NCBI GenBank assembly: GCA_030704615.1
Contig: CM060732.1
Coordinates: 75,020,001-75,084,000, forward strand
DNA length: 64,000 nucleotides
From: Takakia lepidozioides
Taxonomy: Eukaryota; Plantae; Bryophyta
Direction of reading: 5' to 3'
How positions within the stretch are numbered: position 1 is the stretch's first letter; each line of letters begins with the position of its first letter. The translations under genes and the position numbers were made by a program. Positions 1-27,321 of this stretch are shown here, one piece after another. Below the pieces are notes generated by a model that was given only the letters and a program-made list of their open reading frames with translations, was not told the DNA's origin and did no database searches.

Positions 1-156
1 TAGAACTGAGTGTACTTATGATGGGAGGATAGGTTGTTGTGGGGTGGAGTCCCCATAGCTTGGGGTGCCCCTGGCTCGACTTCTGTTTTAAAGAGTGATG
101 ATGAGATGGATTTCATGTTTCTTGTGTTAAGAGTGTGTACTTAGCAATCCTTATCA
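1..156 (+). repeat. 3' part of the 5' LTR of element 1
   Basis: 1-136 is identical to 11376-11511. Both copies then end in ...CTTATCA (156 and 11529). Confidence 0.9.
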
Positions 157-170
157 CTCGAGAGAGATGA
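157..170 (+). promoter_or_regulatory. Putative self-priming primer-binding site
   Basis: CTCGAGAGAGATGA directly follows the LTR-terminal CA and is the exact reverse complement of TCATCTCTCTCGAG at 11330-11343 inside the 3' LTR. No TGG-initiated tRNA PBS is present here. Confidence 0.7.
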
Positions 171-2235
171 CTCTATCTAGTTTTCTAGTGCTAAGCTAGA
201 TATGATGTTTTTCTTAGCACTATTATAATATAACTTGGTAATCTATGAGTCCAAGAGATATGCAGATCCCCACATTCTTCTATTTTCTCTGTGGGCTCTG
301 GCACTGTTTGGGAAGTCGGGTCTTTTCGTCTATCCAAGGCTCTCAACCACAAGTATGCGTCTCATTCAAGCTATGCTAGGGACTCAATCTTGGAGCAAAC
401 AGCCGCTGCCGTGTTTTGAGGCTGTGAGCAAATCAGTTTGTAGTTTGCTGCGACGTCTTCAGAAGGGCCTGCGTCAGGTTGTACTTGTGTGGGGAATCTT
501 GATCAATCTGTTTTGAGGTCCGTGGAGCAGCCCTAAGCAGTGGCAACAGGAGAGTTTTTGGCTGTTACATCCGTCCGCGGTGAGGAGATGGGGACGATGT
601 AGAAGATTTTGTTGCATTGAGGAGAATGGCGTAGCCAGACTGAATGAAGCAGAGGAAGCGACGTGGAGCAAGAGACCAAGGAGCTGAGAATGCCCTATGA
701 AGAGAATCCAATACCATTATGTTCTGCAGCTGGGACAAGACGTCATAGCAAGGCCAAATTACAACATTGCAGCAATGGAGATGATGAACGTGAAACCCTA
801 CAGATCTGTGAAAAGGAGAGATTTGGACGTCTTGCTAGCGATATCAGACAGGCTGGCCACTGGTGCTACATAGATGTCGTGTCAGCATAAGAAGTCACCT
901 CTGGCTGCTAAGAAGAACCTTGTCAGGCTGCATGAAAGAGTTGCAGAGACGGAAGTTGAGATGTCTGTATGGAGTTGCAACAGGACAATGAAGGCAACCA
1001 TAAGTTTGACACCCTCTTTAGGCCTGGGAGGAAGGGAGCACTCAACATGGAGCTGTTGGTGTCACCCAGGATGCCCGAAATTGGTTCAATACAAGGGTGG
1101 TCTCATATGGGAGAAGCATCACTGGCTGGAAATGAACTCAGTGAGCTTTATGCCAAGCCTGCAGTTGTAGATGTTGAACGAATCCAAGCTGCAAATGGTG
1201 TTGAAGAGATAGCTGTATTCCAGTCTGAGGAAGGACTGAAGGAGGCGAGAGCAGACGATTATCTTCCTAGACAACCCATTTTGAACTAACCAACTCTGAT
1301 CTCAAATCACTAACTAAACCTAACTTCAGCAGCTCTCGAGCAAAGTCTCTGGAGTGGAAGTACAGGTGGTGCTTGCCCTGCGAGGGACTGGAGCCCGCCA
1401 GAAAGCCCAATTTGGACAGAGACAAGTAGGAGACTCCCGCTGCAACCTGGGCACTCTCCGATTGCTCCATCTACACATCTCTCATTCCATTTCTTCAGCA
1501 GCATCAACCTCACTGTTGTCGCCCAACTGCACCGACCATGAACTCTTTACAGGGAGTTTATGGTAAAAGGCTGATTGCTCCTACCAAGCAGGTGCCACTA
1601 TAATTGCTTGCATAATCTACTCTCCCGAGGCAAGCGACGCACCTTACTTGCTGCAAACCTTCACTACAGAAATGCAAGCGTCCATCCCTTTTCTGGAGTG
1701 AGCCGCTGGAGAGTGAAACAGTAGCCCTGACGCCAGAGGCATGGCAGACCCGGGGTGCAGGACGAGCAGCAGCTGCCAAGCGTGTACCTGCGAAGGAGGA
1801 TCTCAGCACAACAACCTCAGTTGGTAGACTGCAAATCCACCATTTCGGGCACTCGCAGGGCACGGTATTTTGACCTTGATGGGAACCTGCAGGGAATCGC
1901 AAAAACGTGGGAACAGTTTTTAATGGCGAGAACATTTTTGTGTTAAAAAAAAAACAAAAACAAAAACAAAACAAAAAAACCTTTTGATCTAATTTAAATT
2001 ATTTAGAGCCTAGTTGGTCATATCTTTGTCAAATGAGCTCCGTTTGACTCAGTTTTTGAGGGGATAGCTGCAGAAAGGGGATATCTACCTAGCTAGACTT
2101 GGTTTTTGTTTTTGGGACTCTGCTAAAAATCTATGGAATTTTTAGATTGTGAGTGTGCCGTGAAAGAGCCACAATTCTGTTTCTAGAACCTGTTCTGGTC
2201 TATATGAGAGACAAATCTGTGGATGTCATCCTTGT

Positions 2236-2985
2236 ATGGCTGGGGGAAATGAGGACGTAATTGAAGGGCAGGTCTCTTCTCTTAGCCTGTGCACACAAGG
2301 GGACAAGATTTATGTTTCCCAAGGAACTCAGACTGATTTGAGTGGAGAACAGTTGGACGAGTTGATTGCATACTGGGAGTCAGGCATTAGCAGTAGACAA
2401 CAGACTGCTGTAGTTGGCGTTGAGGGCCTCAATATCGCTTTGGACAGTCAGAACTTTGTTGGAGCCAGCATTTCTGCAGCTGTAGGTGAAATACCAAAGT
2501 GGGTGAAAGCTAGGCTTGGAACACAGTCAAAGACACCCCCGGGTACCAAGGTGTTCAGCCAGAAGGCCATGGTGTACTGGAGCAGAGGAGCAGGAGCTAC
2601 ACAAGTTTGTGCAATCAGACATGGTTGCAGCCGGATACGCTCTGCACAAGGCAACCACGAGCGGGGGTTCATTAGCAATGACAAGTTTGTTTTGCCTGAA
2701 GGAGATGCAGTCATTCGCAATGAGGACACCCGCAACCGTCTCAAAGCTTTCGAGTTGAGAGACTATCAGACCCTACCTTTGTTTTCTCTAGTGTTCAGTG
2801 AGCGGGAGATAGGGGAGTATTGCTTTGTCTCTATATGGCAGAAAGATGAGGAGGGTTGGTTAGAGCGAGCTACTGTAGCTTGGGACAAGGTTAGTGGCAG
2901 GTTTCTGGACATAGATATACCTCCTACACCTTACCATCATGCAGAGCGAGGCACTTTGAGAGAAGTCTGGCACTTGATAGCATAG
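2236..2985 (+). CDS. Accessory pre-gag ORF0 of element 1, unknown function (249 aa, intact)
   Basis: ATG-started, uninterrupted ORF. Its C-terminal ~120 aa align by eye with the pre-gag ORF at 24415-25482. Confidence 0.7.
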   Translation: MAGGNEDVIEGQVSSLSLCTQGDKIYVSQGTQTDLSGEQLDELIAYWESGISSRQQTAVVGVEGLNIALDSQNFVGASISAAVGEIPKWVKARLGTQSKTPPGTKVFSQKAMVYWSRGAGATQVCAIRHGCSRIRSAQGNHERGFISNDKFVLPEGDAVIRNEDTRNRLKAFELRDYQTLPLFSLVFSEREIGEYCFVSIWQKDEEGWLERATVAWDKVSGRFLDIDIPPTPYHHAERGTLREVWHLIA

Positions 2986-3506
2986 ATCAGGATTAGATCT
3001 TGCTTGGGCGGGCTTCTATTCTTCCCCTCCATCTCTGTACTATTTTCATTACCTTGTACTCGTAATTGCCAAAGCCTCTCTTGGTGGAGGCCAGTCAGTC
3101 CGGGGTTTTGGGCTGGGCTATTCTGCAGGATCAGCATTGCAGCTGGATTTTGGTGTGGGGGTGTTGATGTTTTGATTTCTTGTGTTTGGACCCCCCCCCA
3201 ACACCTGCATGCTTGACTGTGCGCCATGTTGGTTTTGTGTGGGCGCTTGCTTTCATAGAGATTAGGCCGGATTTGATCATCGGTCAATCCTAGAGTATGT
3301 TGTCGGTGGTGAGGCTGGAGTGATGACCAGCAAGACCACCAGTGTTTCTTCTATGGTGAGGCTGGGTTGATGACCAGCCAACCATAGGAGTTCTTGCGGT
3401 GGATGCAGGTGCAGGTGCCCTGAGCCATTGGAATATGACCCTTAAACTGCAACAGGTGCTCACCCGTGTCACTATTAGAATCAGTACTAGAGCCCTATAG
3501 TGTCAC

Positions 3507-5108
3507 GTGGGGGAGGTGCACATTGTGAGTGTCATCACGGAGTTACCCAAGGGTTTTGAGAGGAGTACGGCTACAGGCAGTAACAGTGAGAGTGGGTTCA
3601 CGAGACGAGGTATTCGGTTCAAACCACCTTCACCTCCACCCTCAACTAGTGCAGAGTCAGACACAGACTCGGAGGCTTCATCAACAAGTGTGCAGTTTCA
3701 TTCGCCATTGTTGTGGGATGACATGGAGGAGATGTATGGAGCTACCAAGGGGCCTCGTAGGTACTCTGGAGCTGTGGGCACAATCGATTTGGATGACTTT
3801 ATCCAGGAGTTCGACAGCTGGTATGATTTGCAGCAGATGCGCAATCCACAGCTATTCACCCCATTCATGGCGTGGAAGGGACTGTTCCAGCATTTGGAAG
3901 GCCCACCTATGGACGATTACCACGAGTTCAGGCGAGGACATGAAGCAGAGATTGAGGAGTGGAGGATGTATTGGTCACCTGACTATGTCTCCATTACTCG
4001 AGGCACGACGCGACCAGTAGCTGCATCAGTACCAATATCTCCCACTGCCAGCACTAGTAGTGGAGCAAGTAGTGCCGGTACTTCTGCAGGTGGTACCAGT
4101 TCAAAAGATGCTACTACTCCTCCTGCCACGACTACAACACATGTGCCTAGATTCAACCCGGTGGTGGAGTTCTTCCAGGAGTTGCGGAGGAACTACCAAG
4201 GTGTACGGATAGAGAAGCTACGAAGTTTTTAAGACTTCCAGCGCAAACCCAGTGAGAGCCTGCGAGAGGCGTACACTCGTATGAGACGCTTGATAAGTGT
4301 GACCCAAGGGGTTACTGAAGCTTAGGCAATCCAGTTTTGGTATGGAATTCTGGACAAGGAGTTCAAGAGAAGGGTGCGAGATGTAACCCTGTTACAAGCA
4401 GCCCAACCCACATTAGCAGATGTGTTTCTGCTGGCTGAGCGGATTGAGCTCAACATGGTGGAGGAGCAAGTTGTTACCATTGGATTTGGCAAGGACATGC
4501 CTGCACGAGGCGCAGCTGCCAACCCACAGGCACAAGGGACTGCCCAACAGCGTGGTCAGGGGGGCAAGGTTTCCCAACCCAAGTTCCATGGAGCTTACAG
4601 GGGACCTCAGGTGCAGAGGCCCGTGGCATCTTTTGCAAGCCAACAGCAACCAGGGGTGATATGTTGGACATGTGGAGGACCCCATATCAAGAGAGATTGC
4701 CCAGAGAGTGGCAGAAGGCCGACACAAGCACAGCCTGCACAGTTGCAGTGTGGGCATTGTGGCAAGTATGGGCATGGAGATGCCCAGTGTTATGACTTGC
4801 ATCCTGAGTTGCGCCCAGGCCAGTTCCAAGGGAACAATGGTGGCCGGGGGCGAGGTGGACCAGCCCAAAGAGGACGAGGTGGTCGGGCACGAGGTGCAGG
4901 CCAAGGGCAAGCTCAACATGGCCAAGGACGCGGTGGTCAGGGTGTTGACCAAGGCATGGCCAACCGGCTTCAGCAGCTAGAGCAGAGGCTCGCTGCAATG
5001 GCTATAGCTCAGGCGGTACCGGCTCCCAGGCAGGATGGTCCACCTCCTGCTCCTGAGGGAGGAGATATAGGAGGATGGGATTCATGTGCGGAGCAGCACT
5101 ACCACTAG
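3507..5108 (+). pseudogene. gag: gag of element 1 with two zinc knuckles
   Basis: One frame broken by stops at 4230 (TAA) and 4323 (TAG). Knuckles CWTCGGPHIKRDC and CGHCGKYGHGDAQC, followed by an RGG-rich tail. True start uncertain. Confidence 0.85.
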
Positions 5109-5511
5109 TGCAGGTGGAGTCTGCTGCAGCCGTGACTCGAGGAGCAGCACGAGTTCCTGAGCCACGAAGTGCAGAGGTGGAATTGGATCCACAGCGTGGG
5201 GAGGCAAGCCATCAGGCGAGGCTTCCTCAGTCATTCACATTGGCGGAGACTGTGTCGACGCCATCCATGGCACCTAGTTCTCGCCCGACTGTTACCGAGG
5301 CGGAGGTTACTATGCCATTGGGGAGAGCTACACGTGCAGCACTGACACCTGCTACCAAGGCTAGTGCAGCCGGTGTGTTGTTGGGGGCAGCCACCTCTGT
5401 GTGTCAAGCCCCACTATTCTCGGCAACCATGATTGCGACGCCGGGAATAAGACCAGCTGTAGTGTTCAGACTAGCAGCAACACTCTGTGAGAGTGGGGAT
5501 GTCACTTCATC

Positions 5512-6222
5512 TTGGAAGGTGTAGTGGCAGAGGGATCCTCGGATTTGAGGGTCAAGACTGCCACGGCTGCGCCCTGGCAAGCTGCAGCTACCAGATTGAC
5601 GGAACTGCCAGCTAGGCCAGCCTTTGAGCGCGCCATGGTGACACCTGGAACTGTCTTGTTAGACAACCATGAGGGCATTTTCTCTTTGAGTGGACCGGCA
5701 GGCAAGAAGTACCGGCCACTGCGGGTCTTGTTGGACTCGGGAGCCCAGCCACTGATGTTGGGCAGAGCTGCTATTGCAGGTTTGGGCCTCATGGAGGCGG
5801 ATATGGAGCCTTGTCCTTTCCAGATACAGACATCTCTGGGAGGATCAGAGCAGGCTCGGGGCATGACACGGCATCAGTTGGCCATTAGACTGCAGCCGGA
5901 TCATCCTGTAGATGGCTCAGTGATGCGGGTCAAGGCCATTGTGACAGACGCGGTCTCTTACGATGTCCTCGTTGGTGGGGCAATGTTATATCCCATGGGC
6001 TTCACCCTGGACTTTTGGGAGGAGTCAGCATCCTACAGGCCTGGATGGCAATCAGGGGATGGTCGTCGTGCACAGCTCCCTGTGACATTCATTGGGGATA
6101 TTGCGGCTGCCCAACGGGGCAAGATGCCAACACTAGCCGCCTTTACAGCTGCAGTTAGTTGGCCTAGAGAGTTGTTGGAAGGCAATGCCCATGCAGAGGA
6201 TGTACCACCTCTAGTAGAGTAG
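5512..6222 (+). pseudogene. Aspartic protease region of pol
   Basis: VLLDSGA active-site motif (DSG at 5734-5742) and downstream YDVLVG motif. Confidence 0.85.
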
Positions 6223-6435
6223 GATGACATGCATGGTATGGCGGAGTTGCCTGCCATGGTTGCTCACACTCCATTGTGGGGTACGAGCAAGGATTTGCAG
6301 CAGGTTGCTGATCGATGGGTGCAACAAGCTTGGGTAGAGGCTTTTGTACCGTCAGGAGAGGAGGAGAGTGCGGGTATTGCACCAGGACCACCTCAGTTGT
6401 CACCATTGGATACCACACCTATTGTGTGGTAGTAT

Positions 6436-7410
6436 ATGGATGAAGGCATTTGCCTTCTGGACTTGTTTGGCGGGATCAGCACCGGATTGGCTGCTGTGCT
6501 ACAGGCAGGTGCGCGGGTAAGGCGTTATCTGTATGTGGAGAGGGATGAGACTGCACGACGCGTCTCACTGCGCCATGTGGCTCAGTTAGTACAGCAGTAC
6601 CCTGTTTTGTTGCCAGTGTCTGCAGTTCGTGAATACCAACAAGCCTTGCCAGCAGACATTTCGTTGTTGGGGGCGCAGGATTTGGAGCAGGTTGGCTCCA
6701 TTGATCTGGTAGTGGCAGGTTGGCCCTGCCAAGGGCATTCATCAGCCGGGCATGGCAATGGATTGCGAGACTCAAGGATAGGTCTGTTTTGGGAGATGAT
6801 GCGGGTTTTGCGCCACTTACAGCTTCATCAAGCTGTATCTCCAGCATACATCTTGGAGAATGTGCCACTGATGGGTGATTCTCAGGCCAGGGTGATGGCC
6901 AGTGTGCATCAAGTCCGGTCGTGGCTTGGGTCAGCAGTGTTGCTGGATGCAGCTGCAGTGGGGTCACGGGCTCATTGTCCACGGCTTTGGTGGACTAACT
7001 TGATGCCACCCGCACTGCTCAAGCGTGCATTTGATGGGGTGCAGCGGCCAACACACCTCACCGTGGATGACATTTTGGACACAGGGAGGCAGTCTCAACG
7101 TGTGAGACACGATGACCGTTCGCCTTTGGCAGTGGTCAACAGGGTGGGTCAACCACGAGCAGCATTACCTACACTGCTCAGCTTCCCAGGATCCCATGCT
7201 TTTCGGGATGGTGGACTTGGCTTCTTGTGGGATAGCCAGTTGCAACAGTTAGTGGAGCCTAATGCCGACGAGCGAGAGCGGGCTATGGGATTTTCCACTG
7301 GGACCACGGCGGTGCCTTCTCTTTCTGAGGCATCACGTCGTCAGGTGTTGGGGCAAGCAATGGATCTCAATTGCTTGACCTGGATTATCAGCTTGGCTAT
7401 GGCTGAGCAA
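6436..7410 (+). CDS. DNMT3-like C5 cytosine DNA methyltransferase domain embedded in pol
   Basis: Motifs in canonical order: I LLDLFGGISTG, II YVERD, III ADI, IV DLVVAGWPCQGHS (PC at 6724-6729), VI YILENV (ENV at 6856-6864), VIII SRAHCPRLWWTNL, IX ERERAMGF, X RRQVLGQAM. Same reading frame as PR upstream and RT downstream. Confidence 0.93.
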
Positions 7411-7779
7411 CGTAGAGTGCGGAGTGCACTTCCCTTGACGGTCTCTCTGCCTACCGAGACGGTACAGGCAGCGAGTGGGGGCGAGCCGGTGAGGACCACG
7501 GGGTGTAGACATCCATGGCACACGTGGGAGGTGCTCGAGGTTCAGAGGGAGTTGGCAGCCAAGGCAGCTGTGATGGACGAGGTTGGGGATTCTTCTCGGG
7601 ATGAAGAGGTTCTCAATGATGAGATGATAGGGCAGGATGAGGCCTTGTCATTGACTGAGCAGGAAGGGAGTACTGCTCAAGAGGTTGCAGCATAGCAACC
7701 ACGGGACGCGTCCTCTACCCCTAAGCCCACTGGACTTAAGGTTGCAGTTACGGAGGACAATTGGGAGCCTGACATTGGA

Positions 7780-9190
7780 CCCATTGTCACCGGAGGAGAG
7801 AGACGACGTATACGGCGGTTCCTGAGGGCTTACAGGAATTGCTTTGCCTTCAGTTTGAAGGACTTGGGAGCACTGAAGGGTCAAGAGATCCGTATTGAGT
7901 TGGCCACTGACACGCCAATCTTTCGGAGACCCTATAGATACAGTGACATGGAGAGGTCTTTGATTCAGATGAGGACTCAAGATCTCTGGGAGGCAGGTTT
8001 GGTAGAGCTTTCTGGTGGAGAGTATGCTTCAGCCACAGTGATGCCAGCCAAGAAGGATGTCTATGGCAATTGGACGGAGAGACGTATGTGCGGTGATTAC
8101 CGGCCTGTAAATCGTCAGACCAAGTCCGATAGGTATGCCATGCCGACACAGAAGAGATCTTTGATGCCATTGGGCATTCCAAGGTCTTTAGCACGTTGGA
8201 TTTACGATCCGGATATCACCAGTTGCCGATCAAGGAGGCGGATAAGCAAAAGACGGCATTCTGGGGGATCAATGAGTACGGGAAGGATTGCCTATACCAG
8301 TGGCGGTTCTTACCATTTGGGCTTAAAAACGCTCCCGCTGAGTTTCAAAGAGTCATGGACAGGATTCTAGCAGGGGTGGAGTTTGCTCGGTGCTACATAG
8401 ATGACATCATCATCTTTAGTGCTACGGTGGAGGAGCATGAGAGACACCTTCAGGGGGTATTTGAGCGCTTGAGGACGCACGGATTGAAGTTACATCCGGG
8501 CAAGTGCAAGTTTTTCCACAACCAGATTGAGTATCTGGGTCACATGATATATCCTGGAGGATTGGGGGTACAGCAGACTAAGGTAGAGTCCATTGCACAG
8601 GTTCCACGCCCCACGGATGTGAGCCGAGTTCGAGCTTTCATGGGGTTAGCAAACTATTACAGACGGTTTGTTAAGGGATTTAGTGCCATTGCAAAGGCTC
8701 TAACCAAACTGACCAAGGTGGACCAGGAGTGGCAGTGGGAAGATGAGCAAGAACAAGCTTTTCAAGAGCTCAAGGCGAGGTTGACCTCGGCGCCCATCTT
8801 GAGACGACCTATCAGGGGGCGTCCTTTTCAGCTGCATACAGATTGGAGCATGCTGGGGCTTGGAGCGGTGCTCACACAGGTGGATGATGAGGGAAGAGAG
8901 TTCGTAGTGGCTTATGCTAGCCGCTCAAACAATGCTGCAGAGTCTAAGTATAGCTCATATGAGGGAGAATGCTTAGCTGCAGTGTGGGCCGTGGCACATT
9001 TCAGGTGCTATCTATACGGCAATCTCTTCACCCTTGTCACGGATCACCAACCACTCAAGTGGTTGATGGAGTCAGACAAGCTTACGGGGAAGCTTACACG
9101 GTAGGCACTCATCCTTCAAGAGTATGACTTTCAGGTGGTGCATCGACCGGGTTTGGTCAATCGCAATGCAGATGGGTTGAGTCGCAATCC
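7780..9190 (+). pseudogene. Reverse transcriptase and RNase H of element 1
   Basis: RRPYR, RMCGDYRPVN, DLRSGYHQ, LPFGLKNAP, YIDD; RNase H LHTDWS, YEGECLA, VTDH. Frameshift near 8150 and stop at 9102. Confidence 0.95.
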
Positions 9191-9537
9191 ATGCACGAGC
9201 CAGCAGGATGACACTGGAGCTCGGTGGCATGGTGAGACGGACGAGGAGATGGTGCCCGGATGGCATGCATCTGCATTTCTGTGTATCTTGGCAGCGGAAA
9301 GCTAGGTTGGACCTGCAACAGGGATGACTGTAGATCAAAGTGTCTGAGGACCCTGAGGCCAGCAATGAGCAAGGTGGTGCCAAAGATATACATGAGGATT
9401 CAGTTGTGTTGGACTACCTCCGCACTGGAGACACTGCAGCCACTATGACTGCCAAGGAGAGGGATCGGATCCTACAACGAGCCAAGAGGTTCAAGTGGGA
9501 GGGGACACACCTGCTCCGAGTGTGGGAGGATGGTTGA

Positions 9538-10680
9538 GTGAGGATTGTGCCTCACCCAACACAGCGGGCATGGTTAGTGCGGCATGCCCATGAGGAGTTG
9601 GGGCATTTTGGGGTGCGACGCACTCATAGTCTACTGCAGGGGCAGTATTGGTGGCGTGGTATGCACACAGAGGTGCAACAATTTGTGGCTAGGTGCATGG
9701 TGTGTGACAGGGTGCGTGCTTCATTCAATGCCCCTACTCCACAATTGCACCCTCTTCCGATCATGGGATTGGGCTACAGGTGGAGTCTTGACTTCGCAGG
9801 GCCGTTGCCACTGACCATGCGCCACAACAAGTACGTGTTGGTGATGGTGGAGCACTTCTCCAAGTGGATTGAATTGGTTCAATTGCCTGATAAGGCTAGT
9901 GAGCGAGCTGCGTATGCATTCTTGGATTGTGTGCTTAGCCGATTCGGTGCTCCAGCTGAGGTACTCACAGACCAAGGGAGAGAGTTCTTGGGGGAGTTTC
10001 AGGCTTTGTGTGACAAGGCCTTGATAGACCACCGCACCACTTCTCGGGATCATCCTGAGGCCGATGGCTTGGCAGAGAGAGTTGTTCAGATAGTAAAGAG
10101 GGGTTTGCGCAAGTATGGCTTGAAGAAAGGACACCTAGGAGATTGGGACCTTCAGTTACCCTGGTTAGCCATGGGCTACAGGTTCAGCAAACAAGCATCA
10201 CTTGCCTCCTTCTCACCATACTTTCTTCTCTTTGGCCGAGAGCCGGATTTGCCTACATCCATTTGCAGAGAAGCTGCTACAGTTCTTAACCTTAACGATC
10301 CGGATGTATGGGCACGTGCATGTGAGCAGCGTGCAAAGTTGTTCAAGAAAGTCATGCCAATGGCTTTTAAGAACCTTGCCATCGCACAACACCATGATAC
10401 GTTGAGGTATGCTACCATACGTGGTGGGGGCTATCATCATGGGGTTCGGAGATTCAACCCTGGTGACTATGTTTACCTGTAGCAAACTACTCCTACGACC
10501 TTGGATGTGACTGCAGGACGTGTTATTTTGAGGGTTCGAGAGGTCTTGCCCTCAGGCGTCTTGGTCTTGGAGGGTCGGGATGGCATAACTTGGAAGGACC
10601 ATGTGCGTAATTGTGCGCCATGTCACCTTCCGAATGTCGATGGCAGGATTGACCCAAACCTGACAGTGGTATCTGCAGGT
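9538..10680 (+). pseudogene. DDE integrase of element 1
   Basis: HHCC zinc site (AHEELGH...CMVC) and DDE triad SLDFAG / LTDQG / GLAER. Stops at 9535 and 10480. Confidence 0.93.
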
Positions 10681-10686
10681 TTGAGG

Positions 10687-10821
10687 TGCATGTTGTGTGG
10701 GTCTGCTAGAGGGGCAGCCACCATGCTGGTGTGTGATCGATGCTCTAGAGGTTGGCATATGGGATGCTTGACTCCACCTCTTGAGATGGTTCCGGATGGG
10801 GATTGGTTATGTCCACATTGC
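10687..10821 (+). CDS. PHD finger at the integrase C-terminus
   Basis: CMLC...CDRC...WHMGC...VPDGDWLCPHC is a C4HC3 PHD pattern, in frame with the integrase. Confidence 0.92.
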
Positions 10822-11090
10822 ATTGGATAGTGGGAGTGGATACAACCATGGAGGGCTAACAAGAAACGCAAAGCCAAGCTACTAAGGGACCTTGAACACA
10901 CGAGGTCTTGACTCAAGTTCATAGATTGCAAGACGTCGACTAACGATGGGGCTACTCTTGTACCCGGCCTCTTGGTCTATAGAGTTTGAGTACAATAGGG
11001 ACAGTGATAGAGGACTTCGTACGGCTGTGGCTATTACATCTTGTAGCTATCTAGAGGTAGAGAGACCTATCCACCAGCTAGGGGGGCGAT

Positions 11091-11529
11091 TGTGGCAGAC
11101 TACTTTATTGTGCATATATGTGTGGTGTGGTTTGGACAGCGATGTAGTTGTGTAGCGATATGTATGCGCACGACAGCTGTCAAGTTAAATAAGCACAGTG
11201 TGAAAACAACTAGAATAAAGCTAGTTATTTGTACTTAACACTTGGATTTAGGTCAAGTGTTAAATCAGGTGTCAAGTTTAGTTTGACACTTGAACCGCCT
11301 TATCTTCACGAGAGCGGCAGTCGCGTAGCTCATCTCTCTCGAGTTGAGCCTGCGCAACCGAGCTCCTTCATCGTCTAGAACTGAGTGTACTTATGATGGG
11401 AGGATAGGTTGTTGTGGGGTGGAGTCCCCATAGCTTGGGGTGCCCCTGGCTCGACTTCTGTTTTAAAGAGTGATGATGAGATGGATTTCATGTTTCTTGT
11501 GTTAAGAGTGTTCTTAGCTTTTCTTATCA
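11091..11529 (+). repeat. 3' LTR of element 1
   Basis: Begins TG directly after the PPT, ends TTATCA, and matches bases 1-156. Confidence 0.8.
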
Positions 11530-11616
11530 TTGTGGCAGACCACTTTATTGTGCATATATGTGTGGTGTGGTTTGGACAGCGATGTAGTTGTGTAGCGATA
11601 TGTATGCGCACGACAG
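11529..11616 (+). repeat. Second copy of the LTR-start segment (11089-11176)
   Basis: 88-bp direct repeat ATTGTGGCAGAC...GCACGACAG with one mismatch, followed by TGGGTCCACA. Confidence 0.9.
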
Positions 11617-13316: not shown

Positions 13317-13656
13317 TGTTGGAATATTTGAGCTTCTAAAAAGTTCATCAGTGATGAGGAGTGTTTGAATGGCAAGACGCTCATGTGCTGCTTTGACTGT
13401 TGAGTATTTTAGTCAAAGAAGATCGACGACGTCTAGATCTGTAACGGTCGAACAGATCAGATCAATAGCTCCACTCAATATGTGAAGTAGGCTAATTTAG
13501 TGTCCAAACCACTCCGCCAGTCGCCACTAGTTAATCATGAAAAGAGTAGTGCTAATTCCCTGCTCTCTCTGATACTTAGGACTAGTATATTATGCTTGCT
13601 TCGGGGTTAATGAAGTAGACTTCGGACATCTCATTTCTCCTTCACGATTCCTAACA
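13317..13656 (+). repeat. Copia 5' LTR (~340 bp)
   Basis: Termini TGTTGGAAT...ATTCCTAACA form an imperfect inverted repeat, directly followed by the PBS. Confidence 0.8.
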
Positions 13657-13668
13657 TGGTATCAGAGC
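13657..13668 (+). promoter_or_regulatory. tRNA-iMet primer-binding site
   Basis: TGGTATCAGAGC immediately after the LTR-terminal CA. Confidence 0.92.
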
Positions 13669-16060
13669 GGGTTAGTTGATAGGGTCTCTTAGAAGCTGAC
13701 ACTGTCAGTAGAACTCTTAGTAGTATTCTAAGTTTCCTTGAGTCAATATGGCCCATGGGGAGAGCAGCATGTCTGAGAGCTCCAAACTGGGAGGACAGTC
13801 CAATTATAGCACGTGGAAATTCCGTGTATCCAGTTTGCTACAGAGAGATGAGCTCATAGATGTAGTTGAGCCAAATGCCGATGGGATCTTTATGCCGATT
13901 GAGGAAGAATTCCAGGCTGACCAGGATCGGAGGAAGAAGAAGCGATTATTAGCCTATTCGTGAAAGATGAAATCGTGTCGCATATTGCTGGGATCACTGA
14001 TCCAGCGCAGATGTGGCAAGCTTTGAAGGACCTGTTCGAACAGCGAAGTAGTGTGCGACGTTTGTTACTCAAGACCAAGCTCACAAATCTTCGATTGGAG
14101 GAGGGAGGTTCAGTTGCCAATTACTTCAAGCAGCTGAAGGACTAATCAACCAGCTAGCTAACATTGGTGAGGTGGTACGAGAGGATGAACTCTTTGAGCA
14201 AATTCTTGTTACACTTCCCAAGAGCTATGAATCACTTGCCAACACGCTGATCTACCGTGTTGAACTTCCCACTCTTAGCGAGCTAACTGGCATTTTACTA
14301 CACGATGAGGCTAAGAAGGAAATCCGAGGGAAGAAAACAGAGGACGAGGCTCTGTTCATCAAATCCAAATTCAACAAGGCCAAGGTCTATGACAAGAATC
14401 GTAAGGGTGGTGGAGCAAAACGGGAGGGAAGCTGCAATTTTTGTGGCAATCCAAATCACTGGATGCGCACATGTGTTGAACTTTCAAATGAAATCAAACG
14501 CCGAGCAATAGAGCGTGAGCGTAAGGTGAATAGTGTTAATCTTGTGGAGGAAAGGAGCGATGAAGAAATCGACAATTTCCATGAATGCAACGATGCACCA
14601 AGAGAACTAGCTACAGACATCTTGGAACTGAATTTGGCTGAATACGACAAATCCAACTAGTACGTGGATAGCGGCGCTACCAAGCATGTCACTGGCAATG
14701 ATAATTTGCTTAGTGATGTCAAGAAAGGAGATGAAAATATCAAGGTCAAAACCGCTGGAGGAAACTCTCACGATGTTGCTGGGGTGGGCAACATTACTCT
14801 CTCTCAAAAATACTGCAATAAAAAAAGAAGTTTTGTACGTTCGGGGTGTATCAAAGAATTTATTGTCTGTCATTATTTTAGCAGATAAGGGATTCCAACT
14901 TCTTTTCAACGATCAGCATGTCTATCTCTTGAATGCTTCGTTCAAAGTTCTAACCAAAGGGACTCGAGATCAATCAAACGGTCTGTACAAACTGACTGTG
15001 TCTAGGGAATTCTTCTTGGGATCAGTGACTAACACAATCAATCTCAGTAGAATCTGACATCTTAGGTTTGGGCATTTAAATCACAAAAGCTTACATCTGA
15101 TGCATGAAAAGGGTCTCGTCACCAGTCTACCAAAGATTTCTCCTGCTGACTCAGCATGTCAGGCTTGTGCACTAGGTAAGCAAAGTTGTCAGAAAGCTCC
15201 CAGGAAGAGTTTATACCATAAAGTCCAACCTTTTGAACTGATCCATACAGATTTGTGTGGACTATTTTTTGTCAAATCTTTGTGTGGGGCTTACTACATT
15301 TTGACCTTTATCGATGACTACAGTCGCTTTGGCTAAGTCTACTTTCTTCGGAAGAAAAGTGAGACACTCACTCATTTCCAGCATTTTCATGCGAAGGTCT
15401 TGAGACAATTTAACATGTCAATCAAAGTCTTACGATCAGATAAAGGAGGGGAATACAGTTCTCTCTTATTCTCTAGTTTTTGCAAAGAACACGGCACTTA
15501 GAGGCAGTTTACGCAAACTAACACACCGCATCAGAACGGTGTAGCCGAGCGTAGAAACAAAACCTTGTTAGAAAAGGCAAGAAGTCTGGCCTTCGGTGCT
15601 AATTTCCCAGCTGCTCTTTGGGCCGAGGCCATCAACACTGCAAATTATCTGACAAACATATCTCCTACCAGGGCAAATGATGATATCACTCCCTATCAAA
15701 AATTATACGGACAGGTCCCTGATGTCAAACATCTTAGAGTCATTGGTTGTGAATGTTTTGTTCACGTTAACACTCAGAAGTCCAACTGGTCACCAAAGTC
15801 CAGGAGCTGTGCACTGCCAGCATACGATACATCCACGAAGGGCTATAGATGTTTTTGTCCAGAGTTGAACAAAGTTACAGAGTCTAAAGATGTCATTTTT
15901 TCTGAAGATCACATGAGCTTCATGCCGGTTACAACCAGAACAACGATTGAGGACCTTGCAACAACTGTATTCTGCCATCTACCGCAGACTCCAATACTAC
16001 CAGGACCAACCAGCGGAACAACAAGTTGACGTACCCTATTTCGACCAAGGCGCTGAAACT

Positions 16061-21430: not shown

Positions 21431-21799
21431 GATTTCCTCTTGCACTATAGCCATCTTTTTCACACTCTCTCTATAGGCAAATTGCTTGACAGGAGGTCCC
21501 TCAGTCTCAATGTCATGCTGTAGGATTCTTCCCAAGGTCAGAAGCTCCAAGACTGAACACATCCAGGTTGTGAGCTATCAAGGTCTCAACTTGTTTCTTT
21601 TGGGCTTCCTCAAGTAAGGGGTTAAGTTTGATCTCACCAAGGACTTTGCCAAGGGCTTCTATTTCTTGAGCATTGAGTCTATTCTTGAAGCTCATGGCAG
21701 GAGAAGAGTGGCTGGAAAAAGCAGTGACCAGATCTGATTGATCATGGACAATGCCTAAGGCTTCAAAATCAAAAGCAGGCTGGACTTCACCAATCTCTT

Positions 21800-22080
21800 C
21801 TAAGGGACGGGAAGAAATTCTAGCAAGCACTTGCCCCTTCTTGATGGTCATAGGAAACCTTTCAGGATTGGCTATAAGAAGCTTGACTTCATCTTTGTAA
21901 CCTCTATCAAGAACCCCAGTAGCAACAAGACAATGCTTTAAGGTAGTAAGCCTCCTCCATCCATCAACCTCAAGGTAGTGTCCATTAGGACAAAGATAGG
22001 CCAATTGGGTCTTGACCACTCTCTGGCACATAGATGGAATAGTGACATCACATGGAGCTCTAATCAAAGTACTGTTCTTT
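21800..22080 (-). CDS. dUTPase-like domain within pol of element 2
   Basis: DVTIP..RVVKTQL..CPNGHYLEV..VATGVLDRGYKDEVKLLIAN..TIKKGQVLARI follows the trimeric dUTPase pattern. Motif III is recognisable; the other motifs are degenerate. Confidence 0.78.
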
Positions 22081-22988
22081 TGCACCACAATGGGAGCACC
22101 AGACTTTTGACCAAAGCTAGGTACATGCCACTCATACATCAAGGCAAGATCTGGCTTGTATTTGTAAAACTCCAGCCAAGACATGTTGTGGTGGGTCCTT
22201 TGCCTTACCTCCCTTACCATGGCTTGAACTTGGGAAAGGTTGGCAGTAGCAGTGCCTACATGCATCTTGACAGTCTTGAGAGGCACTATGACTTCATGTC
22301 CTTCTCCATTGGGAAATCTTAGGGAGTTGTCACCAAGGTTGATGGTAGCTTGAGCCCCTGTCATCCAATCCAATCCCAACAAGAACTGGTCTCCTACTGT
22401 AACTATGCAAGTAATCAAGACCTCTTTCTTGTGAATTCTAATAGGGACAGTGACCAGCCCCAAGGGCTCATACCTTGACCCATCTGCAATGATGACCTCC
22501 ATGCCTTGTGCAGGGGTCAACTTGAGGCCCAAGACTCGACTCGCTACCTGCAAAGGGATGGTAGACATGGTTCATCCAGTATCTACAACATATGGAAAAC
22601 TCAAATGATGCATATGATATTGTGTGATCAAGGGACTTATGTCAGGCACTTGACATTTCTTGGCTAGTTCACAATGCAAAGCCTTAAAGTTAGTTGACAA
22701 CATGACCCTCTTCTTACTTGCATCAACAGGGGTGCTCCTTCCCATGACCTCTTGTCCCCTGCCCAAGAGATCTTTTTAGTTTAAATGTGTGTAGCCAGCC
22801 TGGTTGGAAGATTCTACCTGAGCATAGCCCTCACAGTCAGGATGTCATACCTTAGTGTAATGCTCATCACTGCCACAAATATAACAAGGAGCAAACTTCC
22901 TCTCATAAGTAGCCCCTGTTTGTGTCTTACCTCTGAACCCTCCACCTTTACCTCTCTGCTGATCTCTGGGTTTGTATCCAGCTCTTTG

Positions 22989-24395
22989 CTAGTCTCTGGG
23001 TCTCCATTCAGTCCTCTGCTGATCAGCCTTCAAGGCTGCAAATTGAGTAGCTATGCTTTTTCCCAACTCACCCACAGTGTGAGCCAATTCTTGCAAAGCA
23101 GAGTCACTAGACTCAGATCCTACAGGAGAGGTCTCTCTCTCATCAAATGTGGCGGCCATGGTGTCTTCATGATCCATATAAGGGATCTGAAATTTCACAT
23201 GGTGTCGCCTTTGCTTTGCTTCAGCCAGGTCCCTAAGCTTAAGACTAACCTCATGCAACATCTCATCACTATCCTTGAAAGTACGACGTTGTCCCCAGGC
23301 TTTCACTTCTGCTGGCATGCCTCTCAAGAAGTGTTGTCTTCGCAACCTCTCCCTAATAACAACATCTTCAGGCACTTGTTCAACAGCAGCAGCCCTTAGA
23401 TCTAAAAAGTATTGCCAAAGAGACTCACCCTCTTTGTATGGCCGGCCACAAAGTTTGTCAAGGCTATCCAAAGGCCTCTCTGCAGGCTTAAAGATCATAA
23501 GGGCTCTTCTTTTAACCTTGGCCCAAGTCAGGTTAGCAACATGCAACAAATCACTAGCTTCTCCTTGCATGCTCATGCGGAATGTACCTATCATGACCTC
23601 TTCTGTAGCTTTGTTCATTTGAGCACTGACTTCAAACAATTCCAGAAAATTCTCTATCGTCTTTCCCATGTTATACTCAGGATAGGCATAAGTAATCACT
23701 GGTGCTACATGGTATACATGACCAGCATCTACATGTCCCTGAAAAGCCACTGCCTGAATTCCCAAATTATTGTGACTTGACCTCGCACCTCCATGCTCAT
23801 GAACTGCCATCCCTCCCATAGCCCGAGAGAGTGGTAATATAGTAGGTGGGGTACTGGACCATGACTGAAGAGCTGGTTGACTTTGTGCAAGCACTTGGCT
23901 TCGCACAGGGCCAGACCAAGCGGACTCACTAGCCACGTACAAAGGATGAGATGCACGAGAGGAGGTGACAGGCATACCTTGAAATTGAGGATTGTCATGC
24001 AAGGAAATAGGCCTCAATTCTGCCGGTGGAGCGGAACTCGAAACTAAGATGCTAGGCTGACTTGCAAGTGACTCCCCTATGTGATCCAAGCCGTCCATCC
24101 ATCGTGCATGGAAATCCATGGCATACAGGCTGGCCCTCGTATCACCTGCAACATCCAAGTTTTCCCGAATTCTACCACCCAAGCCAGGTCTGGTGCTAGT
24201 GGCTGCCGCAGGTCCAAGACCATTGGAAGCCCTAACCTGATTTCTACCATCAACCCCACTAAATCCTTCTTCCATTGATACCAAATCTGACTCTACAAAA
24301 GTCCTATGTCGAGGCTCAGTGACTGGAGATAACACATGAGCATATATCCTATTTCTACCTGAACGCAACCAACGGCTATTGGGCGAGTTGGACAT
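22989..24395 (-). CDS. gag: gag-like ORF of element 2
   Basis: IENFLELFE...MQGEA...GESLWQYF...QHFLRGMP is a retrotransposon capsid-like pattern; a zinc knuckle follows after a frameshift. Confidence 0.75.
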   Translation of the reverse strand: MSNSPNSRWLRSGRNRIYAHVLSPVTEPRHRTFVESDLVSMEEGFSGVDGRNQVRASNGLGPAAATSTRPGLGGRIRENLDVAGDTRASLYAMDFHARWMDGLDHIGESLASQPSILVSSSAPPAELRPISLHDNPQFQGMPVTSSRASHPLYVASESAWSGPVRSQVLAQSQPALQSWSSTPPTILPLSRAMGGMAVHEHGGARSSHNNLGIQAVAFQGHVDAGHVYHVAPVITYAYPEYNMGKTIENFLELFEVSAQMNKATEEVMIGTFRMSMQGEASDLLHVANLTWAKVKRRALMIFKPAERPLDSLDKLCGRPYKEGESLWQYFLDLRAAAVEQVPEDVVIRERLRRQHFLRGMPAEVKAWGQRRTFKDSDEMLHEVSLKLRDLAEAKQRRHHVKFQIPYMDHEDTMAATFDERETSPVGSESSDSALQELAHTVGELGKSIATQFAALKADQQRTEWRPRD

Positions 24396-24414
24396 TAGTT
24401 AGGAATCACCACCT

Positions 24415-25482
24415 TTAGAGATCTTCAACTTCCACTACACTGGTACACTGCCAAGCTTGTGGAGTCACAATCCTCAAAAGCTTGTGTGTCTCTTGATCGT
24501 GCTCAGCAAGAGCCAACCAATTCCACCCGCGGGAATTCTTGAACCAAAAACCCACATACAAGGTGTAGTCTGACCCCCAGTAACGGTCACTTCTCCAAGT
24601 TTGAGACAAGACAGTGCTCGGCGGCCAATGCCCGATGGAGTAAAAAACGTTCAGTTTGCAAATCGAGCGGAGAGCGAATCGCTCGTTAGGAAGAATAACA
24701 AGATTTCCTTGAAGAGCCTTCTCACTATGACCCGTGAGAGAATCAACAAGGTCATGGGTAGTAGGTGTACACACCGAAAGACTCCCAAATCTTAACAATC
24801 GTAACAAAATCGCACCAATGCCACTGGTGAACAAAGCCAAATGCCAGGGATCCACAAAATCGCAGGACACCAGCGGAACGTCAAGGGATTGAACGGAGAT
24901 TTGTTCGCAAAGCCCAAACTGCCTGAATTCCAGGGCACCGTAAGACAAAAATTGACTTTTGAGTTCGGGGATAGGCACCTTGAACTGTCTCCTCAAAGCT
25001 AGTTCTTTGTTAATCACACTATGGACTTCCCTCATCAGTAAAGCAGGATCGCTGATCCAGGCAGAGACTCTCTCCCGTTCAGTAGCTGAAAAACGCGAGA
25101 CGTCCACAAAAAATCGAGATTCAAATTTATCGATCCACACCAAGTCGTCACTGCTCAACTCGAGCTGCTCATTGTCAAACACAAAAGAGTCATGGATTTG
25201 CGAGTTAACATCAGGCAGCCCCTCAAGATCGTAAGCAGGCTCAACGTAGCCCAAACCGTAATCAGCTCTGTCAGGGTCACCGCTTGGCAAAGAGCCCGAA
25301 CTCACTGAGCCACGAGCCGAATACAAAGCTCTTTCTTCCAAGGCCGCTTCTGCCCTAGCATACGCTGAGTAGTTAGAGCCTGAGGAGGTAGGTCTTTCAA
25401 TGTCAGGAACAGGAACCCCTGGAATCAACAATGGAACACGCGCGGCAGGAGCTGCAGGCAATTTCCGAGACTGGACGACCAT
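24415..25482 (-). CDS. Accessory pre-gag ORF0 of element 2, unknown function (355 aa, intact)
   Basis: Open 355 codons ending 20 bp before the gag ATG; similar to ORF 2236-2985. Confidence 0.72.
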   Translation of the reverse strand: MVVQSRKLPAAPAARVPLLIPGVPVPDIERPTSSGSNYSAYARAEAALEERALYSARGSVSSGSLPSGDPDRADYGLGYVEPAYDLEGLPDVNSQIHDSFVFDNEQLELSSDDLVWIDKFESRFFVDVSRFSATERERVSAWISDPALLMREVHSVINKELALRRQFKVPIPELKSQFLSYGALEFRQFGLCEQISVQSLDVPLVSCDFVDPWHLALFTSGIGAILLRLLRFGSLSVCTPTTHDLVDSLTGHSEKALQGNLVILPNERFALRSICKLNVFYSIGHWPPSTVLSQTWRSDRYWGSDYTLYVGFWFKNSRGWNWLALAEHDQETHKLLRIVTPQAWQCTSVVEVEDL

Positions 25483-27321
25483 CCACCACCTGCAAACTGG
25501 GAGTAGATACAGGAACGCCTAAAACTAACTGGCTGGAACCCACCACGGAAGAGTTTGCAACCTCCACTCTCAGTTCTATCTTAACCAAAATCAAGCCGTT
25601 GTCCTCTCTCTCGCTTGACAAGCTACAGAGAACTGCAGACGCCATTGCAACACACAACTCTTGAACCAAAAACTTCTTCCAAAACCAGATTGAACCCGAG
25701 GTAACTGCGCAAAATCATTGTACGTGCGGAGCCGCCACTACCCACAAGACTCCACCATATTTTGTGCTTGAATGAGATTCTCCCGTCTTCACAAGTGCAC
25801 GTTAAACTAGGGGTGTAAGAGCTCGGAAGGAGCGGGCTTCACAGCACGAGAAGAGAGATGAACATGTAGAGGATCCCACGTACAACATATGCAGAGCTAA
25901 CACACACACATCCAAAGCTCACGTCCAGAAGCCCGTACACCAGGTTGTACATACGAGAAGAAGGGCCCTGACTCAAGGTCGGGAACAAGCTTATACCCAA
26001 AACCTAGGGTGAGGCAATACCCCACGTGGCAGCATGCCACGGGTTGCCTAGATTACAAACAGATCTGGCCCGTAGACCAATGAAGGGGCCAGATGCAGCC
26101 ACAAAACTCTAGAATAACCTCAAACAAGTATAGGTTGGGATCAACGTCCGGGGAGAACCGGCAGCCAGTTACATGCTAGCCGACTGAATTCCAGAATTTC
26201 CGAATGAAATATGAAACCTCAGGAAATGGATCCGAGGGAAAAAATGGCCGAAGTGGAAATCAACCGGGTGCCCTACTTTTAGGAAGGATATTTGCCTTTC
26301 CATTTCATTACAGACAGGAAATCTGCCTTAGTTGGCAAGGCCTGGACGGATTCCGGCCCTTCTTATATTACAAAAAATGGAAATGGCCGTCGAAGTCCAC
26401 CACATGGCAGAAATCCAACGTGCCAGGCCCGGTTACATCCAAGGAAGGGCGTTTAGGTGAAAAAATATTGAACTCGAAGAGGGCGGGCCCGCGGGCAAAC
26501 CCTACTAAGTCTGGACGTTGCTCTCGCAGCCCCAGCCCCACGCCTGCTTGCACTCGCTGCCTGCTATCACAGCTCACCTGTCCACGCGGGTTCAATTCTT
26601 GGCCTCCATGTGGTTTGAAGGCATTGACAGGTCCAACTTCTATAAGGATACAATGTTCTTCACTTGTTTGAATTGCTTAAAACTGGTTGTGATTATTTAT
26701 TTATTATTATTATTATTTACTTATTGTTGTGCATTTGACACTTGTGTTGTCAACCGGTTGATATTTATAAGGGCCGGATTTATAGCTGAACACAAAATAA
26801 ATCATTAGGAATATTACCGGTTGTAAAGAAATTATCTCGGAAATTGACCGGGTATAGTTACCACTAAGGGGCAGCAACCGACTGCCCAACCCACTTAGCC
26901 GATTGCTGCTGGGAATGAGCGGCTACTGGCTGGTTCAACTGAAATTATTTCCCGGACGCTGGTTGGGATGTATATAACGGCCTCCCGCCATAAATACTAA
27001 TGGCATGGATGAACTTGTCGGACTATGATGAATAGGCTGAAAGTCAGGCCAGGAGAACATGAGCCATCACACCACTGCATACCTAGTCTTGCCTTAAGGC
27101 ATGGCCCGAAAAAACTACTCAGTAGGTACGATCTAATGCAAAGGCCTGGGCCTTGTATATGCTAATTCGAGGATTGGCACTTCTTTAAGCAAAACATATA
27201 CAGAGAAGAAGCCCAGTCGAGGATCGAACACCGGAGCAGGTGACGTTGGAACTTGGATGAGCAACGGCGCCCCAATTCGGCCGGTCGGTTAGTTGGTTTC
27301 ACAGCAGCACGAAGGGATGGT

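What the first reader, a model, noticed from the sequence alone, without database searches (positions are those of the whole stretch)
10687..10821. PHD finger replaces the chromodomain at the integrase C-terminus
Seen: an intact C4HC3 PHD in frame with IN, with no chromodomain after it, whereas the neighbouring chromovirus has a chromodomain at this position. Established: PHD fingers bind histone H3 tails, and animal DNMT3 is guided by the PHD-like ADD domain that reads unmethylated H3K4. Inference: the PHD targets integration by chromatin state and, together with the MTase, rebuilds a DNMT3-like reader/writer pair on one polyprotein.
Basis: partly seen in the sequence, partly recalled or inferred. 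Interest (0 to 1): 0.72.

Follow-up and report, generated by a model that had tools for sequence, protein, structure and literature searches.

The report
PHD-tipped integrase of methyltransferase retrotransposon
A broken copy of a plant jumping gene ends its insertion enzyme with a real, family-wide PHD finger that likely grips the unmodified tip of histone H3 to help choose landing sites, while the DNA methyltransferase it also carries sits before a conserved stop codon and so probably works mostly apart from the finger.

Summary
The PHD is real: C4HC3 at 10687-10821, Pfam E 2.4e-11. It is in the integrase frame, but a stop private to this decayed copy cuts it off. No chromodomain follows; the neighbouring chromovirus has one. 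The element belongs to the Gypsy-DNMT3 group (KnitGypsy-Dnmt3 type), here traced through streptophytes and chlorophytes (1,046 clusters). A search without the PHD in the query found it in 122 of 124 relatives with room for it. It keeps the H3A1/R2-binding residues and lacks the K4me3 cage. The K4me0 acid is present in only 77 of 161 and absent here. Integrase tethering to unmodified H3 is the likely role (untested). The DNMT3-like pair is weaker. A fixed stop with a readthrough-type context (35 of 39 loci) separates gag-PR-MTase from RT-IN-PHD, the MTase changes position between lineages, and each module has been lost without the other. 'Replaces a chromodomain' is not shown. A PHD in a Gypsy polyprotein, with a targeting hypothesis, is already published (Gypsy-7a_cRei), and this scan noted the same feature on four other windows. 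Side findings (split repeats cut at a palindrome, 4-bp target duplication, self-priming site) may be the more novel part.

The parts
1..156 (+). 3' part of the 5' repeat A (the element's left end lies about 200 nt before the window)
   Evidence: 96% identical to 11376-11529
156..170 (+). putative self-priming primer-binding site right after repeat A
   Evidence: 15-nt exact complement of 11330-11344; 17 and 12 nt at the same offset with different sequence in L013 and L061, 8 nt in L021; function inferred
2164..2985 (+). 273-aa open frame upstream of gag, unexplained
   Evidence: no Pfam hit, no hit in fetched loci, no Atlas hit
3501..5108 (+). gag, broken, with two CCHC-like knuckles at 4662-4790
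5716..6051 (+). aspartic protease with DSG motif
   Evidence: weak Pfam hits; own profile
6442..7398 (+). DNMT3-like C5 cytosine methyltransferase; this copy has lost the motif VIII arginine kept in 97% of 141 sequences
   Evidence: PF00145 E 1.5e-11; best PDB hits for relative L001 are DNMT3A/B/C; motif counts
7693..7701 (+). family-wide in-frame stop with CAR-YYA context, likely a programmed readthrough site between gag-PR-MTase and RT-RH-IN-PHD
   Evidence: 35 of 39 loci have TAR-CAR-YY(N), 7 of them exact TAG-CARYYA; no variant at 5% or more in 4 runs
7696..9200 (+). reverse transcriptase and RNase H, frameshifted near 8150 and with a premature stop
   Evidence: RVT_1 E 4e-31, RT_RNaseH E 3e-31
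9538..10686 (+). integrase: H2C2 finger, DDE core, helical linker and predicted SH3-like barrel; premature stop at 10480-10482 in this copy
   Evidence: model of relative L001 with five strands, mean pLDDT 86
10687..10821 (+). C4HC3 PHD finger at the integrase C-terminus (frame ends at 10830)
11080..11089 (+). polypurine tract
   Evidence: sequence; similar tract before repeat B in relatives
11089..11175 (+). repeat B, first copy
11172..11181 (.). 10-bp palindromic B|A junction holding both element termini 2 nt apart; putative integrase attachment site
   Evidence: similar junction in 24 of 50 loci long enough
11178..11530 (+). repeat A, second copy
11531..11615 (+). repeat B, second copy; right end of the element
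   Evidence: laid depth collapses beyond 11625

Best explanation
The finger is the conserved C-terminal domain of the integrase of a Gypsy-DNMT3 retrotransposon and likely tethers the integration complex to nucleosomes by binding the free, unmodified N-terminus of histone H3 (A1 and R2), which would bias insertion away from modified promoter chromatin, while the methyltransferase likely acts separately. Shown: domain identity, position, conservation, residue signature, and the stop between MTase and RT. Inferred: the MTase is made at Gag level from ORF1 and probably methylates the element's own cDNA; RT-IN-PHD is made only by leaky readthrough (or reinitiation) and is cut free by the protease; H3 binding and targeting follow by analogy with chromovirus chromodomains. 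This copy is dead.
For: PHD present in 122 of 124 relatives with room for it among 150 hits found with a PHD-free query, the other 26 ending before the site, and in 65 of 70 MTase-selected proteins with a full integrase tail. dN/dS 0.05-0.38 in the 10 of 21 pairs with measurable dS. Top PDB sequence and fold matches are unmodified-H3 readers: KDM5A/B PHD1, ATXR5, BHC80, BAZ2A/B, DPF3, UHRF1, ORC1b. Asp after Cys3 (KDM5B D328, UHRF1 D334; binds R2) in 148 of 161; Trp/Phe of the A1 pocket in 157 of 161; cage Trp in 1 of 161 (residue roles from PMC4225485 and PMC3214078). The PHD stays on integrase while the MTase sits before RT in one lineage and between RNase H and IN in the other. MTase lost with PHD kept in P0036/P0056 and P0300; PHD lost with MTase kept in P0206/P0207/P0212 and P0236. 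A PHD-bearing Chlamydomonas Gypsy shows 2.6-fold intergenic enrichment (PMC9940879; its membership in this clade was not tested).
Against: No binding or insertion-site data for this family. The K4me0-binding acid before Cys1 is in only 77 of 161 and absent here, and this copy's loop before the beta strand has no acidic residue, so selectivity for chromatin state may be weak. MTase and PHD co-occur very tightly (25 of 27 loci reaching both sites, mostly one family from a few metagenomes), which also fits coupling. Several streptophyte members and the chlorophyte lineage have both in one ORF. Readthrough is inferred from sequence context only; the commonest locus family has CAA-CCC-ATG, where reinitiation is possible. 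The Chlamydomonas bias may be selection, as its authors say.
Confidence: 0.55

Rival explanations
1. DNMT3-like reader/writer pair: the PHD guides or allosterically activates the element's MTase on H3K4me0 chromatin, methylating the insertion site or new copy.
For: The MTase is DNMT3-like with catalytic Cys, EN and Arg motifs at 97% of 141. Co-occurrence 65 of 70 and 25 of 27. In the chlorophyte lineage the order is MT-IN-PHD in one ORF, with a Tudor-like domain after the PHD in 94 of 115 long tails.
Against: Fixed stop between MTase and RT-IN-PHD in this lineage; 3.3 kb of RT, RNase H and IN between them; a protease is present; independent losses; canonical PHD rather than ADD; K4 acid not conserved. 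ADD is an animal DNMT3 domain (PMC12344493) acting by direct contact with the MTase (PMC13109025). The KnitGypsy-Dnmt3 MTase alone showed no activity in yeast, called inconclusive by the authors (PMC5890265).
Confidence: 0.15
2. General nucleosome tether: the PHD binds any free H3 tail through A1/R2 and raises integration efficiency without selecting a chromatin state, as UHRF1 PHD tolerates K4 methylation.
For: R2/A1 residues conserved, K4 residues not; UHRF1 precedent (PMC3214078).
Against: About half of members keep an upstream acid, and chlorophyte members have acidic loops plus a second reader-like domain.
Confidence: 0.2
3. Non-histone role: the finger binds a host protein, nucleic acid or integrase itself, for example to process the unusual palindromic attachment junction.
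For: The family has atypical split repeats and an internal junction, which may need extra integrase functions.
Against: The conserved surface residues are those that bind H3 in solved complexes, and the PHD has been lost in some lineages.
Confidence: 0.1

Closest known systems
KnitGypsy-Dnmt3 / Gypsy-DNMT3 of streptophytes (de Mendoza et al. 2018, PMC5890265; named in bioRxiv 10.64898/2026.05.21.726589)
   Same: Ty3/Gypsy domains with a DNMT3-like MTase in pol and DIRS-like repeat layout. A Klebsormidium nitens protein (P0112, PR-MT-RT-IN) is among the hits and in the same RT lineage.
   Different: The paper's main text and 3 supplementary files held never mention PHD (figures not visible). 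P0112 is truncated before the PHD site; its nearest tree neighbour P0020 has the PHD. Here a conserved stop separates MTase from RT, and the group extends to chlorophytes with a second domain order.
Gypsy-7a_cRei of Chlamydomonas reinhardtii (Craig et al., PMC9940879)
   Same: Gypsy Gag-Pol with a PHD finger, intergenic insertion bias, and a published suggestion of targeted insertion.
   Different: No MTase is listed in its figure legend; the PHD's position and clade membership could not be checked (figure not visible, sequence not compared).
Chromoviruses (Tcn1, Chlamyvir, MAGGY type)
   Same: A histone-reader module at the integrase C-terminus after an SH3-like barrel; a predicted self-priming site as in Tcn1/Tf1 (PMC6317226).
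   Different: PHD instead of chromodomain; no SH3_Tf2-1 Pfam hit in the 20 relatives scanned or the window's integrase; MTase; split repeats. Descent from chromoviruses not tested.
EpiLTRs (bioRxiv 10.64898/2026.05.21.726589) and CopiaMBD (PMC6673714)
   Same: LTR retrotransposons joining chromatin readers with, or instead of, DNA methyltransferases.
   Different: EpiLTRs have a chromodomain, DAM and a DNMT4-related enzyme; CopiaMBD has an MBD and is Copia.
Animal DNMT3A/B (PWWP-ADD-MTase)
   Same: Catalytic domain family; an H3-tail reader on the same genetic unit.
   Different: Canonical PHD, not ADD; not adjacent to the MTase; separated by a stop, RT, RNase H and integrase.

Membership tests
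PHD finger (PF00628) | C4HC3 zinc ligands and fold | tested here: met
   intact pattern in 153 of 166
Unmodified-H3 reader PHD | Asp after Cys3 (R2) and P-x-G-x-W pocket (A1) | tested here: met
   present in the window copy; 148 of 161 and 157 of 161; aligned to KDM5B PHD1
Unmodified-H3 reader PHD | acidic residue before Cys1 that binds K4me0 | tested here: not met
   absent in the window copy; 77 of 161 in relatives
Unmodified-H3 reader PHD | measured H3 peptide binding | not testable with these tools
   no binding assay possible
H3K4me3 reader PHD | aromatic-cage Trp two residues before the His ligand (position recalled; cage requirement in PMC3214078) | tested here: not met
   Gly here; Trp in 1 of 161
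Gypsy-DNMT3 (KnitGypsy-Dnmt3 type) | Ty3/Gypsy order PR-RT-RH-IN with DDE integrase | tested here: met
Gypsy-DNMT3 (KnitGypsy-Dnmt3 type) | DNMT3-related MTase in the coding region | tested here: met
Gypsy-DNMT3 (KnitGypsy-Dnmt3 type) | DIRS-like repeats A-coding-B-A-B | tested here: met
   window (left end outside it), L013, L021, L061
Gypsy-DNMT3 (KnitGypsy-Dnmt3 type) | RT related to the K. nitens elements | tested here: met
   P0112 falls with the window's RT in the 52-row lineage, SH-like 99, no outgroup
Gypsy-DNMT3 (KnitGypsy-Dnmt3 type) | MTase in the same ORF as RT | tested here: inconclusive
   same frame but split by a conserved stop in this sub-lineage; one ORF in others
Chromovirus | chromodomain at the integrase end | tested here: not met
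Chromovirus | RT/IN phylogeny inside the chromovirus lineage | not tested
   no labelled reference sequences held
Phygy (moss non-chromovirus) | 4-bp TSD with NCGN preference, tRNA-Trp PBS, no extra domain (PMC6317226 supplement) | tested here: not met
   4-bp TSD in L013 and L021, but no central CG in the 15 right flanks printed (some repeat one insertion); self-complementary PBS; MTase and PHD present
DNMT3 ADD-MTase module | ADD (GATA-like plus PHD-like) domain next to and contacting the MTase | tested here: not met
   canonical PHD 3.3 kb downstream, beyond a conserved stop; no ADD among hits shown; physical contact itself untested

The most novel reading that the evidence does not exclude
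An ancient green-lineage retrotransposon clade runs its own epigenetic programme. Gag-level DNMT3 pre-methylates the cDNA, a readthrough-limited integrase cuts a circular intermediate at an internal palindrome (DIRS-like split repeats yet 4-bp target duplications), and the PHD (plus Tudor in chlorophytes, where MT-IN-PHD may stay one protein) docks it on unmodified-H3 chromatin and directs methylation of the new site.
Probability: 0.2. Interest if true: 0.8.

Novelty: new variant of a known kind. Interest (0 to 1): 0.45.

Why it matters
Reader domains on integrases decide where transposons land. A PHD-based counterpart of chromoviruses spanning more than a thousand sequence clusters from chlorophytes to land plants would be a second large targeting strategy, testable with a 50-residue domain. 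The conserved stop shows the MTase is probably needed at Gag-like amounts, which points to methylation of the element's own cDNA rather than DNMT3-style reading and writing. The repeat anatomy suggests a DDE integrase acting on a circle, a route not expected for Ty3/Gypsy elements. The PHD itself is a known type of add-on, so alone it is of moderate interest.

Tried and rejected
No genome is held for the window, so copy insertion sites could not be mapped. No RNA holder listed, so expression is unknown; X7 is only a guessed RNA run. A complex prediction of MTase with PHD gave no verdict, so contact between them is open. The wide structural aligner and the Atlas search on the SH3-like barrel did not complete. 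Foldseek on the whole C-terminal model gave PHD and Tudor-PHD hits only, with high rmsd, so the barrel's family is unassigned. Profile comparison with the neighbouring chromovirus matched only the H2C2 region. CpG o/e of the element (0.48) is no lower than the rest of the window (0.43), so there is no signal of self-methylation. A two-sequence RNA fold of repeat A was uninformative. The careful ML tree did not finish; FastTree and quick IQ-TREE trees without outgroup were used. Considered and rejected: chance motif; sequencing artefact for the MT|RT stop (fixed across runs and loci); canonical LTR plus a truncated neighbour (L013 and L021 start at A with a TSD); host PHD gene captured only in this copy; Phygy membership. 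REM1 (Perez-Alegre 2005) and Sanchez and Zhou 2011 were not held. A sequence look-up in earlier findings returned nothing.

Full report
Observation. Window 10687-10821 (+) encodes a complete C4HC3 finger, the only such pattern in six frames of the window. It scores 43.9 bits against PF00628, and its model overlays solved PHDs at about 1 A. It is in frame with the integrase core but cut off in this copy by a stop at 10480-10482. About 99% of contig depth in run X1 and all in X5 and X7 has no stop there (X8 laid nothing). Nothing in Pfam follows it. The minus-strand neighbour has SH3_Tf2-1 and a chromodomain.

The element. Positions 1-11615 hold a decayed Ty3/Gypsy element: gag, protease, C5 methyltransferase, RT, RNase H, integrase, PHD. 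The MTase of relative L001 is closest to DNMT3A/B/C in the PDB. Catalytic residues are kept in 97% of 141 sequences, and this copy has lost one. A split SecA gene in the window and the nearest named relatives (Coleochaete scutata, Marchantia polymorpha) point to a streptophyte plant (inference).

Conservation. With the PHD in the query, 117 of the 120 listed relatives carry it; that search is biased. With only the integrase C-terminal linker as query, 1,046 clusters at 50% identity match. Of the 150 listed, 122 have the PHD at the expected place, 26 end before it and 2 lack it, both apparently frameshifted. With only the MTase as query (97 hits), 20 have no integrase, 7 end early, 65 have the PHD and 5 do not, one of these with a degenerate finger. 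In 77 metagenome loci the PHD is in 52 of 54 that reach it, and both domains are in 25 of 27 that reach both; most loci are one family. dN/dS over the PHD is 0.05-0.38 in 10 of 21 pairs, and dS is saturated in the rest. Named members include Volvox, Pleodorina, Tetrabaena, Haematococcus, Chlamydomonas eustigma, Monoraphidium and Klebsormidium.

Type of PHD. The best PDB matches by sequence and fold are readers of unmodified H3 (specificities partly from entry titles, partly recalled). Mapped on KDM5B PHD1 (PMC4225485, passages) and UHRF1 (PMC3214078, passages), the R2-binding Asp is in 148 of 161 and the A1-pocket Trp/Phe in 157 of 161. The K4me3 cage Trp is in 1 of 161, and an acid before Cys1 is in 77 of 161 and not in this copy (4 of 165 did not fit the pattern). 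So binding of the free H3 N-terminus is predicted, but K4me0 discrimination is not assured.

Is it a reader/writer pair? Three results argue against a DNMT3-like unit. First, an in-frame stop lies between MTase and RT (7693-7695). Of 39 loci with the MTase end, 35 have TAR-CAR-YY(N), 7 of them exact TAG-CARYYA, 2 look decayed and 2 have none; background is 29 of 10,659 TAGs. No variant reaches 5% in four runs, and many database proteins end or begin there. CARYYA is a known readthrough context (PMC3441728, passages). The MTase is thus likely made with Gag and IN-PHD at a lower level; 28 of the loci are near-copies of one family with a following ATG. Second, RT trees split the clade into a lineage with the MTase before RT and one with it between RNase H and integrase. 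The MTase tree roughly follows this (2 changes), while the PHD never leaves integrase. Third, P0036/P0056 (nested in the second lineage) and P0300 lack the MTase but keep the PHD, and P0206/P0207/P0212 and P0236 do the reverse. In favour of coupling: the tight co-occurrence, single ORFs in several members, and the MT-IN-PHD order of chlorophytes, where 94 of 115 long tails hold a PTM/DIR17-like Tudor match (iterated profile from a weak Pfam hit) and 2 a chromodomain. Physical contact is untested.

Repeats. The layout is A-coding-B-A-B in the window, L013, L021 and L061. True ends are TGTC...GACA, found 2 nt apart at the internal B|A junction (a perfect palindrome at 11172-11181; similar in 24 of 50 loci long enough). 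L013 and L021 have 4-bp target duplications. This is what opening a two-LTR-type circle at an internal site would give (inference). A 15-nt stretch after A is complementary to a site inside A, with different but paired sequences in L013 and L061, which suggests self-priming.

What is known. De Mendoza 2018 (PMC5890265: abstract, passages, part 2 of the main section, search of 3 supplements; figures not visible) described KnitGypsy-Dnmt3 with DIRS-like repeats and has no 'PHD' in text. Craig et al. [quoted passage not shown] PMC6673714 and PMC8557442 (passages) call PHDs common transposon accessories. A 2026 preprint (passages; supplements closed, and they may bear on domain architectures) describes EpiLTRs with DNMT plus chromodomain. 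Neumann 2019 (passages and one supplement table) lists no PHD lineage. PMC13109025 and PMC12344493 (passages) were used for ADD. Searches found no paper joining PHD and DNMT3 in this family, or describing the readthrough stop. The library misses most subscription papers, Craig's thesis and REM1. The scan had noted the same feature on four other windows.

Verdict. A real, conserved feature and a variant of known kinds. Most likely an integrase tether for unmodified H3 tails (0.55). The DNMT3-like pair is unlikely in this lineage (0.15). Interest 0.45, partly for the readthrough stop and the repeat anatomy.

Noticed in passing
window 7693-7701: Family-wide stop with CAR-YYA context splits gag-PR-MTase from RT-RH-IN-PHD; likely programmed readthrough.
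   Followed up: yes
window 11089-11615; L013 1679-10805; L021 1766-10971: Split direct repeats with true ends at an internal palindrome and 4-bp target duplications: a DDE integrase may cut a circular intermediate.
   Followed up: partly
window 156-170 and 11330-11344: Complementary pair with compensatory differences in relatives; putative self-priming as in Tf1/Tcn1.
   Followed up: partly
proteins P0246, P0027, P0236, P0119, P0243, P0059: Chlorophyte members add a PTM/DIR17-like Tudor domain after the PHD (94 of 115 long tails), rarely a chromodomain; some carry a G-patch.
   Followed up: partly
window 2164-2985 (+): 273-aa open frame inside the element upstream of gag, with no match in Pfam, Atlas or fetched loci.
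   Followed up: partly
window 28338-34658 (+) and 27244-28170 (+): A 2,106-aa and a 308-aa open frame with no Pfam hit.
   Followed up: no
window 21513-25518 (-): Three long frames, one with a protease-like region and a dUTPase (E 8.5e-9); looks like another retroelement.
   Followed up: no
window 13600-16000 (+): Decayed Copia fragment (gag, protease, integrase).
   Followed up: no
window 41413-43623 (-): Pieces of a SecA gene in separate frames, probably exons of a host gene.
   Followed up: no
protein P0138 (cluster of P0004): A member of this plant/algal retrotransposon cluster is filed under an uncultured cyanobacterium, probably a binning contaminant.
   Followed up: no
protein P0203 (Marchantia Mp_6g11220): An annotated Marchantia gene is the PR-MTase part of such an element.
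   Followed up: no
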